A DNA stretch of 54,105 nucleotides from Tatlockia sp. (GTDB taxonomy: Bacteria; Pseudomonadota; Gammaproteobacteria; Legionellales; Legionellaceae), in NCBI GenBank assembly GCA_013697645.1, contig JACCWL010000322.1, positions 1 through 54,105 on the forward strand, read 5' to 3'. Made by a program: the position numbers and the translations under genes. Position 1 is the stretch's first letter. Each line of letters opens with the position of its first letter. Positions 1-6,291 of the stretch are shown here, piece after piece. Below the pieces are notes generated by a model, which worked only from the letters and a program-made list of their open reading frames with translations, had not been told where the DNA came from and searched no databases.

Positions 1-66
1 GATACAGGAACTTAGATGTTATAGGAAATAGCAGTTAAGTAATAATAAAAAAAAGTGGAATATAAA

Positions 67-243
67 ATGGAAAATGATCGAGCAAGACCTTTAGCATACA
101 CGCTAGCCAAAGAACTGAATTCCAAAGAATTAGATGAGGTATCTGGTGGGGAAGGAGGGATTCATATTTGTATGTTGCCAACCCAGTATGAGACCAATAA
201 ATCAACTTTAGATGCTACAGCCGATTATAGAGTTGATTGGTAA
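67..243 (+). CDS. RiPP (graspetide) precursor peptide 1 with double-glycine leader
   Basis: ATG at 67 (in frame with ORF 55..243). 28-aa leader MENDRARPLAYTLAKELNSKELDEVSGG ends in a typical ELxxVxGG C39 cleavage motif; 30-aa core EGGIHICMLPTQYETNKSTLDATADYRVDW. Lies upstream of an ATP-grasp ligase and a C39 exporter. Confidence 0.9.
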   Translation: MENDRARPLAYTLAKELNSKELDEVSGGEGGIHICMLPTQYETNKSTLDATADYRVDW

Positions 244-464
244 TATTTCTATTAAGTTAATTGGTCGTTATAGAGCTCTAAAGAAAGATTTTGCCAACTA
301 AAAATGGAAATAGGTTTGTAAAATTCAGTGATGTGTCGGCACAGGTTTAACCCCGCAATTTTGAAAAAGAAAAATTTGAGATAAAAAGGAATTATCTGAT
401 TAAGGAACTTAGATGTTATAGGAAGTAGCAGATTAAGTAATAATAAAAAAAATTGGAGAAAAAA

Positions 465-641
465 ATGGAAAATAGTCAAGCAAGAATTCTAGCCTACAAT
501 TTAGCCAAAGAATTAAATCCTAAAGAATTAGATGAGGTATCCGGAGGTGCAGGATGGATAACGACTAGCCACACTTGTTTTGTTCCAACGGGACCATTCA
601 GCAACCTAGATGGTATAGTTGACGTCTCGGTTGATTGGTAA
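465..641 (+). CDS. RiPP (graspetide) precursor peptide 2 with double-glycine leader
   Basis: ATG at 465 with TGGAG RBS at 454-458. Leader MENSQARILAYNLAKELNPKELDEVSGG is 23/28 identical to precursor 1; core AGWITTSHTCFVPTGPFSNLDGIVDVSVDW. Confidence 0.9.
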   Translation: MENSQARILAYNLAKELNPKELDEVSGGAGWITTSHTCFVPTGPFSNLDGIVDVSVDW

Positions 642-659
642 TAATTCAAAAAAAAATTT

Positions 660-695
660 AAAGTAGCTTGCTATTAAACTAGCGAGTTACTTTTT
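660..695 (+). terminator. Intrinsic terminator-like hairpin between precursors and ligase
   Basis: AAAGTAGCTTGCTA (660-673) / loop TTAAAC / TAGCGAGTTACTTT (680-693): 14-bp stem with two G-U pairs, ending in a T run. Confidence 0.7.
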
Positions 696-2878: not shown

Positions 2879-2960
2879 GATGAAAAACTAGTCTGGAGGG
2901 AGCGGTATGAAAATCGGGGTTGCGGGCCCTGGCTCCATGACACTTTAATTGGTCGTCACG

Positions 2961-3033
2961 CGTAGGTTGGCGCCCCTGGCCCGAGGTTTCTTACCCGTTT
3001 ACCCCAATGTTGGGCCAGGGGCGCCGACCTACG
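2961..3033. repeat. GTAG-type REP doublet (REPIN-like inverted repeat)
   Basis: CGTAGGTTGGCGCCCCTGGCCC (2961-2982) and GGGCCAGGGGCGCCGACCTACG (3012-3033) are 21/22 inverted repeats. GC-rich within AT-rich DNA; a related copy lies at 29045-29110. Confidence 0.8.
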
Positions 3034-3190
3034 AACGGGTAAGCCTCAGAGCCTTGGCAAGGTTTTTTCCAAGGTCTGCCATCGGGCTATGGATCTCTTT
3101 CTAGGCTTCATTTCAAATCAAGAAAGCTGAGATCAATGGATAAGATCTCAGCCATTTATTTTAACAAGTCTACTTTTTTGGTCTTAACTT

Positions 3191-4201
3191 ATGGAAAACA
3201 AAGGGTCTCTTTTCAGACAAGAAGTAATAAACAATCGCCTTAACCGAAGTTTAGGTTCAACAAGAATTAATGTACCGCTTAATTATCGTATTACTGGCTA
3301 TTGTGCTCTAGTCATCTTGCTCGTATTAATTATCTTTTTCTACTTTGCCCAAATCTCTGAAAGAAATTTTATTCGAGGGTATTTAGATTCCGAAAATGGA
3401 ATTGTTTCAGTTGAATCTGAGTTTTCCGGTATTATCGATAAAGCGTATGTAGAAGAGGGTAAGGCCGTCAAAAAAGGTGAACTTTTATTCATTATTTCAA
3501 ATCAAGAAAAGAGCATCTCCCTTGGCCAAGTTAATAATTTAAAGAAGCGCATTTTAAACTTAAAGCGGGAATATCAGCTTAAAGAAGCTCATTATTATGC
3601 CCTATCAAAGTTATTTGCCAAAAACTATGTTTCCTCATCCAATCTCAAGGATTCTGAGTCAGAGTTATTGGAACTTGAAAATAAAATAAAAGGGGCGGAG
3701 TATGAACTACTTCAATTCAAAGAGAGTCGGCGTCAGCTTATAAAATCGCCAATTGATGGTGTCGTCACTAATATTTTTTTCCGCCAAGGTCAAAGGGTGC
3801 AGCCTGCAAAGCCCTTAGTACAGATTATCCCGCAAGATTCTAATTTTGTTGCACGATTATTTATCCCTTCACGCGAAATCGGTTTTCTCAATCTCGGCCA
3901 AGAGATCAATCTAAAATATGATGCATATCCTTCTCAGCGCTTTGGTTTTTATCAAGCGATTATCAAGGAAATAAACCAGACCATCTTAACCGATGATAAA
4001 GAAGACAAACCCATCAAGGTTGGGGAGCCTTATTATAAAATAAAGGCTGAGATTAAAGCGCAATACGTCAAAGTCTATGGCAAAGAAGTGGCTTTAAGTC
4101 ATGGTATGACTTTGACGGCCGTGATTCGAGGTGAAAGAAAGAAAATTTGGCAATGGGCCGTTGATCCCATTTATAGTTATTATGGAGATAACATTCTATG
4201 A
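3191..4201 (+). CDS. HlyD-family membrane fusion protein of a peptide T1SS
   Basis: N-terminal SLFRQE, single TM helix, lipoyl-like halves (V.EG..VKKGELLF; IKSPIDGVV), YDAYPSQRFG, GMTL. Overlaps the downstream ABC gene (ATGA). Confidence 0.92.
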   Translation: MENKGSLFRQEVINNRLNRSLGSTRINVPLNYRITGYCALVILLVLIIFFYFAQISERNFIRGYLDSENGIVSVESEFSGIIDKAYVEEGKAVKKGELLFIISNQEKSISLGQVNNLKKRILNLKREYQLKEAHYYALSKLFAKNYVSSSNLKDSESELLELENKIKGAEYELLQFKESRRQLIKSPIDGVVTNIFFRQGQRVQPAKPLVQIIPQDSNFVARLFIPSREIGFLNLGQEINLKYDAYPSQRFGFYQAIIKEINQTILTDDKEDKPIKVGEPYYKIKAEIKAQYVKVYGKEVALSHGMTLTAVIRGERKKIWQWAVDPIYSYYGDNIL

Positions 4202-6291
4202 ATGCAGCTGCCAAAAGCCTTTTAACTATCCGATCTAAAAAATTACCGGTTATCAAGCAAGCCCAATTTTCTGAATGTGGGCATGCCTGTGTGGCGATGA
4301 TTGGCAATTTTCATGGTCACAAAATAGATTTGTTTTCATTAAGAACTATAGAAGAACCCTCGATGAATGGGGCTTCAATGTTGGATTTAATTCGCTTGTT
4401 AGAAAGGCTAAATTTTACTAGCCGTGCAATCCGAGTTGATATTAATGAGTTGAAGTTCGTCCAGTGTCCGGCAATATTACATTGGAATATGAACCATTTT
4501 GTTGTTTTAAAATCCGTCCACTCTAAATACATTGTGATTCATGATCCTGCCGTTGGTGAGCGTAAAGTATCGTTGACTGAGGCATCTTCTTCGTTTACAG
4601 GCATCGTTCTTGAAGTGGAAAAGGCAGAGCATTTTGTTGTAATTCATGCAAAAAACAAACTGGCTTGGTTTGATTTATTTAAAAATGTTCAAGGTTTAAA
4701 GAACAGTTTAATTATTTTATTGTTTTTATCTTTGGCAATAGAAGTCTTTATTTTAATTAATCCGCTTTTTATCCAATATGTTACTGATAATGTCACCAGC
4801 TCAAATAATTTTAATAATTTATATGTCGTTGTGGCAGGTTTTTTAATTTTAACCTTATGCCATACCTTTGTTGAATATATGCGATCTCACTTTGTCGTTT
4901 ATTTAACAAACCGCATGGGCGAGTATTTTTCGTCAGGCGTTATGCATCATTTACTGAAAATACCCTACGATTATTTTGAACGGCGTCATAGAGGAGATAT
5001 CTTATCTAGGTTCCACTCAATTAATGAGATTCAAGCTAAAATAACTACGGATTCAATCAACACCTTGCTTGATGGCTTGGTTATTATTTTAGCCTTAATC
5101 ATTATGTTTGTTTACTCGGTGCAACTCACTCTGATCGTAGTATTAGCGTTGCTGTCCTACATGACCTTAAGAATCCTTAGCTATCGGCATCATAAAAAAC
5201 AAACTGAACTTTCAATCTCTGAACACGCCAATGTTAGCTCTAAATTTTTAGAAATTATCCAAAGTATGATGTCGATTAAGCTTTATTCTAAAGAAAAAAC
5301 GATGTTTCAAGGTTGGCAAAATCATTTTATTAAAGCGATGAATGCAGATATTAAAATCTCAAGAGCGAACATTTTGTATAATACTGCCACTATTTTCCTT
5401 TTCAATATCGAGAATATTTTAGTGATTGCTCTTGGTGCGTTGTTTGTAATGCATAATCAGTTTTCAGTGGGAATGTTGATGGCTTTTCTTGCCTATAGAC
5501 AAAGTCTTGTTAACAAATCTTCATCATTTATCCAAAAAGTGTTCGACTATAAATTGATATCTGTTCAGTTAGACAGGGTTGCTGATATTTTAATGCAGCC
5601 CATAGAGGAGCAAAAAACTAGCAATTGTTTAGCCAAAGATTTAAAAGGCGATTTAAAAGTAAGCAATTTAAATTATAGATACGGGCAGAATCAGAATTGG
5701 ACCTTAAAAGACATTAACTTCCATATAAATCCCGCTGAAAAGGTGGCGATAACCGGTCCTTCGGGAGTAGGTAAAACAACCTTATTAAAAATTATGCTGG
5801 GATTAATCTCGCCATCATCTGGCGAAGTGCTGTTGGATGATTTTTCAATCTCAACTTTAGGATTTAAAAAATATCGCAGCTTGTGCGCGTCTGTTATGCA
5901 AGATGATACCTTAATCAGTGGGTCAATTCTGGATAATATTTCTTTTATGGATACTAGAGTTGATATCGATAGAGTCTATGAGACTGCAAAAATTGCCCAG
6001 ATTCATGAGGATATTTTAAAGATGCCGATGGGTTATGAAACACTCATTGGCGATATGGGCTCTACCTTATCAGGAGGGCAAAAGCAAAGGGTGTTAATCG
6101 CCCGCGCTTTATACAAGAATCCAAAAATTTTATTTCTTGATGAAGCAACTTCTCACTTAGACGTTGAAACTGAAATAAAGATTAATCAGGCATTGAAGGG
6201 GCTCAATATCACTCAGGTAATAATTGCTCATCGCGAAGAATCGATAAAGATGGCGGATAGAATAATAAACCTTGCTGGGAATTTATCATAA
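4198..6291 (+). CDS. Peptidase-containing ABC transporter (C39 PCAT, CvaB/SunT family)
   Basis: C39 catalytic residues intact (QAQFSECGHAC, HWNMNHFVVL, IHDPA); TMD; Walker A GPSGVGKTT, LSGGQKQR, LFLDEATSHLD, IAHR. Confidence 0.95.
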   Translation: MNAAAKSLLTIRSKKLPVIKQAQFSECGHACVAMIGNFHGHKIDLFSLRTIEEPSMNGASMLDLIRLLERLNFTSRAIRVDINELKFVQCPAILHWNMNHFVVLKSVHSKYIVIHDPAVGERKVSLTEASSSFTGIVLEVEKAEHFVVIHAKNKLAWFDLFKNVQGLKNSLIILLFLSLAIEVFILINPLFIQYVTDNVTSSNNFNNLYVVVAGFLILTLCHTFVEYMRSHFVVYLTNRMGEYFSSGVMHHLLKIPYDYFERRHRGDILSRFHSINEIQAKITTDSINTLLDGLVIILALIIMFVYSVQLTLIVVLALLSYMTLRILSYRHHKKQTELSISEHANVSSKFLEIIQSMMSIKLYSKEKTMFQGWQNHFIKAMNADIKISRANILYNTATIFLFNIENILVIALGALFVMHNQFSVGMLMAFLAYRQSLVNKSSSFIQKVFDYKLISVQLDRVADILMQPIEEQKTSNCLAKDLKGDLKVSNLNYRYGQNQNWTLKDINFHINPAEKVAITGPSGVGKTTLLKIMLGLISPSSGEVLLDDFSISTLGFKKYRSLCASVMQDDTLISGSILDNISFMDTRVDIDRVYETAKIAQIHEDILKMPMGYETLIGDMGSTLSGGQKQRVLIARALYKNPKILFLDEATSHLDVETEIKINQALKGLNITQVIIAHREESIKMADRIINLAGNLS

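What the first reader, a model, noticed from the sequence alone, without database searches (positions are those of the whole stretch)
1..6291. Graspetide-type RiPP system with double-glycine precursors and a dedicated type I exporter in a Legionella-like genome
Seen: two 58-aa precursors, an ATP-grasp ligase, a HEAT protein, HlyD and a C39 ABC transporter, all co-oriented. Established: ATP-grasp RiPP ligases form omega-ester/amide links between Asp/Glu and Ser/Thr/Lys, and C39 PCATs cleave after GG and export through HlyD/TolC. Inference: this encodes secreted macrocyclic peptides. The leader lacks the microviridin PFFARFL motif and instead has RxLAYxLAKELxxKELDEVSGG, and the cores do not match the microviridin TxKxPSD pattern. 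I know of no characterised graspetide from Legionella, but cannot verify novelty. Possible roles include protease inhibition, interbacterial competition or an effect on amoebal hosts. No tolC is present, so a chromosomal one is presumably borrowed.
Basis: partly seen in the sequence, partly recalled or inferred. Interest (0 to 1): 0.92.

Follow-up and report, generated by a model that had tools for sequence, protein, structure and literature searches.

The report
Cysteine-bearing Legionellaceae graspetide gene cluster
This is a known type of gene cluster, already catalogued in print, that likely makes small cross-linked peptides and exports them; its one unusual feature is a cysteine at a predicted cross-linking site in every precursor, which would give a sulfur-based link so far described only in engineered peptides.

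Summary
Observation confirmed; novelty claim not. Both precursors, the graspetide-type ATP-grasp ligase, a HEAT/ARM protein, HlyD and an intact C39 transporter lie where stated. Both precursors are printed verbatim, with these coordinates, as group 8 graspetides in a 2026 survey (PMC13097080). A Legionella pneumophila group 8 member, Gra-7, was already expressed and lost three waters (PMC9576775). The ligase occurs in 97 of 203 family genomes. Added here: a third precursor on the abutting contig; a core register T/S-x3-T/S-x3-T/S-G...D-x3-D-x3-D whose outer donor and third acceptor covary, predicting a three-rung stem-loop; and cysteine at a predicted donor site in all three precursors. Cysteine is 8 of 16 non-Thr/Ser donor residues in 57 cores, only p=0.03 after collapsing clades, and not replicated in 9 new cores. 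It would give natural thioester bridges, which I found described only as engineered. The HEAT protein looks Sec-exported, with an invariant Arg/Asn surface. The exporter comes from the paralogous Gra-7-like lineage. The GC-rich hairpin at 2961-3033 is an unrelated genomic repeat.

The parts
67..243 (+). Precursor 1: 28-aa double-glycine leader (67-150) + 30-aa core (151-240); predicted donors Cys7, Thr11, Thr15 and acceptors Asp21, Asp25, Asp29 of the core; Cys codon at 169-171
   Evidence: listed as group 8 in PMC13097080 file 2 row 4542; register read by eye against L036 because this core lacks the T/S-G anchor
465..641 (+). Precursor 2: leader 465-548 + 30-aa core 549-638; predicted donors Thr6, Cys10, Thr14 and acceptors Asp21, Asp25, Asp29; Cys codon at 576-578
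   Evidence: listed as group 8 in row 4551
6..559 (+). Tandem precursor unit (upstream region + leader) repeated at 398-bp spacing; a further copy with a third precursor lies at the end of contig C287
730..1830 (+). Graspetide synthetase (ATP-grasp ligase), group 8
   Evidence: ATP-grasp motifs located (their catalytic roles are recalled); 65% identical to the L008 ligase, whose precursor is also a group 8 row
1841..2878 (+). Accessory protein: signal-peptide-like N-terminus, small beta-alpha-alpha-beta-beta domain, ARM/HEAT superhelix with invariant C157, H161, C162, R201, R234, N235, R239, S264, D269, R270, N271, K272, Q306, N308
2961..3033 (.). Inserted GC-rich palindrome (arms 2961-2982 and 3012-3033), a dispersed genomic repeat; inside the locus but not part of the system
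3191..4201 (+). HlyD-family periplasmic adaptor
4198..6291 (+). C39 peptidase-containing ABC transporter; Q21, C27, H100, D116 present, Walker A, signature and Walker B motifs intact
   Evidence: assignment of the catalytic triad is recalled knowledge

Best explanation
This is a group 8 graspetide gene cluster of a Legionellaceae genome, whose ATP-grasp ligase likely staples each 30-residue core into a three-rung stem-loop and whose C39 transporter and HlyD are predicted to cut the leader at Gly-Gly and export the peptide through a TolC encoded elsewhere. Shown: gene content, group 8 listing, conservation across the family, and the donor/acceptor pattern. Shown only for the L. pneumophila relative Gra-7: three dehydrations by the ligase alone and cleavage of one leader by a C39 peptidase domain. 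Inferred (about 0.65): nested pairing of donors at i, i+4, i+8 with acceptors at j, j-4, j-8, as in fuscimiditide; for precursor 1 Cys7-Asp29, Thr11-Asp25, Thr15-Asp21, for precursor 2 Thr6-Asp29, Cys10-Asp25, Thr14-Asp21. Inferred (about 0.5): the cysteine rung is closed as a thioester. Inferred (about 0.6): the single exporter also serves the three precursors of the exporter-less paralogous locus on contig C252. Inferred (about 0.35): the peptides are secreted inhibitors used in conflict with competitors or protist hosts, presenting a variable loop on a fixed stem, and the Sec-exported ARM/HEAT protein is a periplasmic peptide-binding self-protection factor rather than a biosynthetic enzyme.
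For: Ligase family and PDB hits. Group 8 listing of both precursors; group 8 co-occurs with a peptidase-type transporter (PMC13097080 main text). Gra-7: three dehydrations with precursor plus ligase, leader of A cut by LahT150 (three genes only). Register: in 57 anchored cores (of 108 non-redundant, 123 with a clean Gly-Gly cut, 139 found) Thr/Ser fill 47 of 57 sites at -8 and 51 of 57 at -4, against 2 of 57 at -3 and -2. Covariation in 64 cores: third acceptor kept in 42 of 47 with outer Thr/Ser, 6 of 6 with outer Cys, 2 of 11 otherwise (p=3e-6). Fuscimiditide has the same spacing, Thr3-Asp22 and Thr7-Asp18. Cys: 8 of 114 donor sites against 3 of 452 other sites (p=2e-4), although Cys is only 4 of 49 one-step codon neighbours of Ser/Thr; ligases with Cys donors fall at five separate places in the tree; all five precursors found with the window's ligase and its two nearest relatives carry it. 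Ester-forming ligases make thioesters efficiently on substituted substrates (PMC12291112). Accessory protein: signal-like N-terminus in 86 of 104 scorable homologues of 118 by a simple heuristic; 83 of 88 genomes that have it also have the ligase; not found in 400 other genomes of the phylum sampled. Exporter swap.
Against: No product of this cluster has been analysed; Gra-7 connectivity was never solved and its ligase type is represented here by the C252 paralogue, only 46% identical to the window's ligase. The Cys signal weakens to 4 donor against 3 other clades (p=0.03) and was not replicated in 9 anchored cores of 23 new metagenomic ones (1 of 18 donor sites, 2 of 69 others). Position -7 is also 51% Thr/Ser, so alternative donors exist, and by eye several unanchored cores carry Cys one place after a donor site (L042, L060, L097, L130). 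Precursor 1 and the C287 precursor were registered by eye. L039 has a second Cys that could form a disulfide. 14 of 97 ligase-positive genomes gave no accessory-protein match, and most distant homologues of it stand without a ligase, so its link to the peptide is not obligatory. No direct evidence bears on the biological target.
Confidence: 0.8

Rival explanations
1. Same cluster, but the cysteines are not donors: the ligase closes only two ester rungs (or uses a neighbouring Thr/Ser), and Cys is a tolerated drift from Ser or serves disulfides or metal binding.
For: Weak clade-level and replication statistics; Cys also at -7 and -3; Ser to Cys is one base change; precursor 2 has Thr9 next to Cys10; some graspetide ligases refuse Cys.
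Against: Other one-step neighbours of Ser/Thr (Ala, Pro, Arg, Ile, Asn) are nearly absent from donor sites while Cys is half of the exceptions; all 6 outer-Cys cores keep the matching Asp, which is lost in 9 of 11 cores without a nucleophile; precursor 1 has no Thr/Ser before Thr11, so three rungs need the Cys.
Confidence: 0.45
2. The peptides are signals (kin or density cues) rather than weapons, and the exported ARM/HEAT protein is their receptor or carrier.
For: Conserved scaffold with lineage-specific loops; a dedicated exported binding-type fold with an invariant surface; divergent helix-turn-helix-like genes upstream of several loci by eye.
Against: No sensor kinase or transducer recurs in the loci inspected (by eye); patchy presence (97 of 203 genomes), precursor multiplication and module swapping are more typical of conflict systems (recalled generalisation); characterised graspetides with known activity are protease inhibitors.
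Confidence: 0.25
3. The HEAT protein is a biosynthetic partner or late tailoring enzyme needed for maturation, as the PPIase-like partner is for rosaritide.
For: Encoded directly behind the ligase in most loci (68 of 78); 14 invariant residues including a Cys-x3-His-Cys cluster; partner-dependent graspetide ligases exist.
Against: Signal-peptide-like N-terminus places it outside the cytoplasm; Gra-7 was triply dehydrated without it; type I export bypasses the periplasm (established knowledge); homologues persist where the ligase is missing.
Confidence: 0.15
4. The ligase is a RimK/LysX-type amino-acid ligase and the small ORFs are ordinary unmodified double-glycine bacteriocins.
For: Leaders score weakly with bacteriocin and lantibiotic leader models; the ligase is below the cut-offs of all named graspetide models.
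Against: RimK 20 bits against 179-186 bits for graspetide models; PDB hits; group 8 listing; donor/acceptor covariation; Gra-7 dehydration.
Confidence: 0.02

Closest known systems
Group 8 graspetides, including Gra-7A/B of Legionella pneumophila (PMC9576775; PMC13097080)
   Same: Same group by the published classification, which lists these very precursors; same leader type, Gly-Gly cut site, several precursors per ligase, three donors and three acceptors, peptidase-type transporter nearby.
   Different: Gra-7A and B resemble, by eye, the first and third precursors of the paralogous locus on contig C252, whose ligase is 46% identical to the window's; the window's cores carry Cys at predicted donor sites; Gra-7 connectivity and activity were not determined; the exported HEAT protein is not mentioned in the passages I read.
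Fuscimiditide / pre-fuscimiditide (bioRxiv 10.1101/2021.05.19.444834)
   Same: Nested stem-loop with donors and acceptors four residues apart (Thr3-Asp22, Thr7-Asp18); its ligase forms a thioester on an engineered substrate (PMC12291112).
   Different: Two rungs, an O-methyltransferase and aspartimide, actinobacterial; no PCAT/HlyD or HEAT protein; the thioester there is engineered, here it would be encoded.
Microviridins (group 1; MdnB/MdnC, AMdnB, CdnC)
   Same: Homologous ATP-grasp ligase (best PDB hits), Gly-Gly leader, three links.
   Different: No PFFARFL leader, no microviridin core, one ligase instead of two, predicted ladder rather than cage.
Rosaritide (group 21; PMC13097080)
   Same: Three acceptors near the C-terminus, PCAT in the cluster, a strictly co-occurring accessory gene.
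   Different: Interlocking rings with acceptors two apart, and a cytoplasmic PPIase-like partner needed for catalysis; here acceptors are four apart and the accessory protein looks exported and was dispensable for Gra-7.

Membership tests
Graspetides (class) | ATP-grasp ligase of the graspetide-synthetase type | tested here: met
Graspetides (class) | Adjacent precursor with leader and core bearing Ser/Thr/Lys donors and Asp/Glu acceptors | tested here: met
Graspetides (class) | Side-chain ester or amide links in the product | not testable with these tools
   Shown only as three dehydrations for the relative Gra-7
Group 8 graspetides | Ligase falls in the group 8 cluster of the published similarity network | tested here: met
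   Both precursors listed with group 8 in PMC13097080 file 2, rows 4542 and 4551; precursors of many fetched relatives likewise. The network was read from the table, not recomputed.
Group 8 graspetides | Co-occurring NHLM-type peptidase transporter | tested here: met
   TIGR03796 best hit, 470.7 bits, below its cut-off; statement
Group 8 graspetides | Core consensus motif as first defined for group 8 | not tested
   The defining papers were not seen (PMC8688276 not held; the earlier 12-group paper not read)
Microviridins (group 1) | PFFARFL leader motif | tested here: not met
   Motif from PMC8939145; absent from the precursors
Microviridins (group 1) | MvdC and MvdD orthologues over their cut-offs | tested here: not met
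   One ligase, 182.7 of 425 and 179 of 475 bits
RimK/LysX alpha-L-glutamate ligases | TIGR00768 over its cut-off | tested here: not met
   20.2 of 143.4 bits
C39 peptidase-containing ABC transporters | C39 domain with Cys-His-Asp triad, membrane domain and ATPase; Gly-Gly leader with hydrophobic -4, -7, -12 | tested here: met
   leader residues read; triad and leader rule are recalled knowledge
ARM/HEAT repeat proteins (accessory protein, residues about 122-341) | Alpha-solenoid of helical repeats | tested here: met
   HEAT_2 over cut-off; model pLDDT 92.5; best VIA match Z 12.0, rmsd 3.8 over 177 residues, a level common for helical repeats
POTRA domain (accessory protein, residues 20-115) | Beta-alpha-alpha-beta-beta POTRA fold | tested here: inconclusive
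   Element order fits; BamA/Omp85 POTRA rows at Z 4.4, rmsd 2.6-2.7 over about 60 residues, ranks 20-21, on a single-sequence model of pLDDT 66; Omp85/POTRA rows with TM under 0.3 in the Atlas

The most novel reading that the evidence does not exclude
A lineage of group 8 graspetides encodes natural thioester-bridged peptides: the ligase closes a Cys-Asp thiolactone as one rung of a three-rung ladder, giving secreted peptides with a built-in reactive acyl link, alongside an uncharacterised exported ARM-repeat family that binds them for self-protection.
Probability: 0.35. Interest if true: 0.7.

Novelty: new member of a known kind. Interest (0 to 1): 0.38.

Why it matters
As a cluster it is ordinary: catalogued in print, with an expressed relative. 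It still matters in three ways. About half of the Legionellaceae genomes searched carry the ligase (97 of 203), yet no structure or activity is reported in the papers I could read, so it is a family-wide secreted peptide system without a known role. The covariation gives a concrete connectivity prediction for a group whose rings were never solved. If the cysteine rung is real, these would be natural thioester-linked graspetides; the 2026 survey still calls thioester links non-native, and such a bond would interest both RiPP enzymologists and peptide-ligation chemists.

Tried and rejected
GC-rich element at about 2897-3110: folds at z -6.5 but has no Rfam match (best E 0.74 of 3 chance rows); its palindrome arm occurs at 156 places in this genome, 85 of them within 120 nt of a contig end, with weak matches in only 2 of 203 other family genomes: a dispersed REP-like repeat, rejected as a regulatory RNA of the cluster. 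Fold searches on the accessory protein gave only generic ARM/HEAT matches and nothing clear for its N-terminal domain. The precursor-profile search of the protein database returned only 16 proteins among 90 candidates and added nothing. Neighbours of distant accessory-protein homologues (30 ORFs chosen by hand from 136) showed no recurring RiPP genes apart from a HlyD/C39 pair in L223. Promoter and terminator scans were at chance level (27 found against 25.4 expected; 2 against 4.0). Sequencing runs: no RNA holder listed; contigs of run X1 cover 74-1900 and do not reach the contig start, so whether more precursor units lie between C287 and the window is open. A maximum-likelihood tree did not finish; FastTree was used instead. 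Literature searches for a natural thioester graspetide and for Legionella graspetides found only the papers cited; subscription papers are not covered. No earlier findings of the scan matched.
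Full report
Observation. The ligase scores 179-186 bits with graspetide-synthetase models and 20 bits with RimK; all five PDB sequence hits are graspetide ligases. The transporter keeps Q21, C27, H100 and D116 and its ATPase motifs (the triad assignment is recalled). 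The window is the start of contig C110. Contig C287 ends just after a third precursor with the same leader, and its last bases continue the repeat unit that separates precursors 1 and 2 and overlap the window's first five bases, so the array has at least three members. A second locus on contig C252 has three more precursors, a ligase of 46% and a HEAT protein of 27% identity, and no exporter in the 10.2-kb contig. A genome-wide profile search finds these six precursors and no others above noise. A TolC over the family cut-off lies on contig C206, none on this contig. The assembly is 91.7% complete.

Prior art. The finding's novelty does not hold. In supplementary file 2 of Carter et al. 2026 (PMC13097080), both precursors are printed verbatim with coordinates 66-243 and 464-641, labelled group 8, genus Tatlockia (rows 4542 and 4551); 101 rows of the held part name Legionella-type organisms, of which I saw 87, all group 8. 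Group 8 also holds acidobacterial and myxobacterial members and commonly co-occurs with a peptidase-type transporter. A 2022 Nature Communications paper (PMC9576775) expressed Gra-7, a group 8 cluster of L. pneumophila: each of two precursors, with the ligase alone, was dehydrated three times; LahT150 cut precursor A but not B; yields were too low to place the rings. By eye, Gra-7A and B match the first and third precursors of the C252 locus, so Gra-7 represents the paralogous lineage, not this locus. What I saw: PMC9576775, passages, section 11 and part of supplementary file 3 (file 5 unreadable, figures not held); PMC13097080, parts 1-2 of 6 of the text and rows of file 2 (cut when stored; Table S4 not held); PMC8939145, passages and section 5; bioRxiv 10.1101/2021.05.19.444834, PMC12291112, PMC12848669, PMC9811515 and PMC13003496, passages only; PMC8688276 not held.

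Distribution. The ligase matches in 97 of 203 scored family genomes. Of 100 fetched loci, 78 had at least 4.5 kb downstream; 68 of these have the HEAT gene, 58 HlyD plus transporter, and 57 all five components (a floor, as detection used the window's own queries). Named relatives are Legionella and Tatlockia.

Predicted product. From 139 precursors, 123 with a clean Gly-Gly cut and 108 non-redundant, 57 could be anchored, without looking at Cys, on a Thr/Ser-Gly ahead of a D-x3-D-x3-D triad. Thr/Ser fill 47 of 57 sites eight residues before the anchor and 51 of 57 four before, against 2 of 57 at -3 and -2. In 64 cores with at least two acceptors, the third acceptor is kept in 48 of 53 cores with an outer Thr, Ser or Cys and in 2 of 11 without (p=3e-6; kin are not independent). 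This supports a nested three-rung stem-loop, matching the three dehydrations of Gra-7 and the spacing of fuscimiditide (Thr3-Asp22, Thr7-Asp18). The pairing is inferred. Position -7 is also 51% Thr/Ser, so alternatives exist.

Cysteine at donor sites. All three precursors of this array have a Cys on the donor grid: outer rung in precursor 1 and the C287 precursor (registered by eye against L036; they lack the anchor and are not in the count of 57), middle rung in precursor 2. So do the single precursors of the two nearest ligases, L036 and L039 (SH-like support 94 and 90). Across the 57 cores Cys is 8 of the 16 non-Thr/Ser donor residues, against 3 of 452 other sites (p=2e-4), though it is only 4 of 49 one-step codon neighbours of Ser/Thr; Cys-donor ligases sit at five separate places in the tree; all 6 outer-Cys cores keep the partner acid. 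Against: collapsing clades leaves 4 against 3 (p=0.03); 9 anchored cores among 23 new metagenomic ones gave 1 of 18 against 2 of 69; several unanchored cores have Cys one place after a donor (by eye); L039 has a second Cys. Ester-forming ligases make thioesters on substituted substrates, the lactam-forming Myx ligases do not. The 2026 survey calls thioester links non-native, and two full-text searches found no natural case in the open library. I put the thioester at about even odds, and at 0.35 that it is both real and unreported.

Accessory protein. It has a signal-peptide-like N-terminus (86 of 104 scorable homologues of 118, simple heuristic), a small mixed domain whose likeness to POTRA is inconclusive, and an ARM/HEAT solenoid (pLDDT 92.5; generic matches) with 14 invariant residues, among them Asn at 235, 271 and 308 and five Arg/Lys. 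A once-per-repeat Asn ladder is how ARM proteins grip extended peptides (recalled). 83 of 88 family genomes with it have the ligase; 14 of 97 ligase genomes lack a match; it was not found in 400 other genomes of the phylum. Distant homologues in high-GC metagenomic contigs mostly stand without a ligase, though L218 has it beside a ligase fragment and a group 8-like precursor.

Exporter swap. The window's transporter is 70-79% identical to those of six loci whose ligases are only 42-48% like the window's, and groups with five of them at SH-like support 99, whereas the ligase tree puts these lineages far apart. With the exporter missing at C252, the simplest reading is that one exporter of the Gra-7-like lineage was joined to this cluster and serves both loci. 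No rooted test was run.

The hairpin between the HEAT gene and hlyD is a dispersed GTAG-starting palindrome with 156 places in this genome; the REP label is recalled, and a borderline Y1 transposase match lies on contig C100. It is not part of the system.

Verdict. A real, intact group 8 graspetide cluster, already catalogued and with an expressed relative. The residual interest lies in the connectivity prediction, the possible natural thioester, and an uncharacterised exported ARM-repeat family. Interest 0.38.

Noticed in passing
window 2961-3033 and genome-wide: GTAG-starting GC-rich palindrome with 156 places in this genome, 85 of them near contig ends, nearly confined to this genome among 204 family genomes; it probably explains much of the assembly's fragmentation. 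A borderline Y1 transposase match (23.3 bits) is at G000:C100:2219-2578.
   Followed up: partly
L002:5415-8255 (contig C252): Paralogous Gra-7-like locus with three precursors, ligase and HEAT gene but no exporter; its second precursor has four cysteines.
   Followed up: partly
L001:1750-2394 (-) and upstream of L006, L009, L010, L011, L018: A divergently transcribed gene of about 210-230 aa that looks like a helix-turn-helix regulator by eye precedes the precursors in several loci; the L001 one has no Pfam match at 1e-5.
   Followed up: partly
L044, L048, L050, L055, L056, L057, L068, L077, L090: Two-ligase clusters (precursor, ligase, HEAT, second precursor, second ligase, HlyD, transporter) in which the second precursor has a different core type, often with acceptors two apart.
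   Followed up: no
L111, L116, L117: Three related loci whose precursor has the family leader but no Gly-Gly and a basic, acceptor-poor tail, with no HEAT or exporter match nearby; degenerate or repurposed.
   Followed up: no
L159, L215; genomes G009, G133, G143: The accessory HEAT gene is kept where no ligase was matched, as an orphan self-protection gene would be.
   Followed up: partly
L181, L186, L191, L200, L205: Deeper-branching loci whose leaders end in Ala-Ala-Gly instead of Gly-Gly, with a divergent transporter; two have Cys on the donor grid by eye (L191, second precursor of L205).
   Followed up: partly
window 6467-7717 (+): GNAT acetyltransferase fused in one frame to a SAM methyltransferase, directly downstream of the transporter; not checked for conservation with the cluster.
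   Followed up: no
window 7980-8279 (+) and 8377-9666 (-): Stand-alone GIY-YIG gene followed by a glycosyltransferase that begins a run of minus-strand genes.
   Followed up: no
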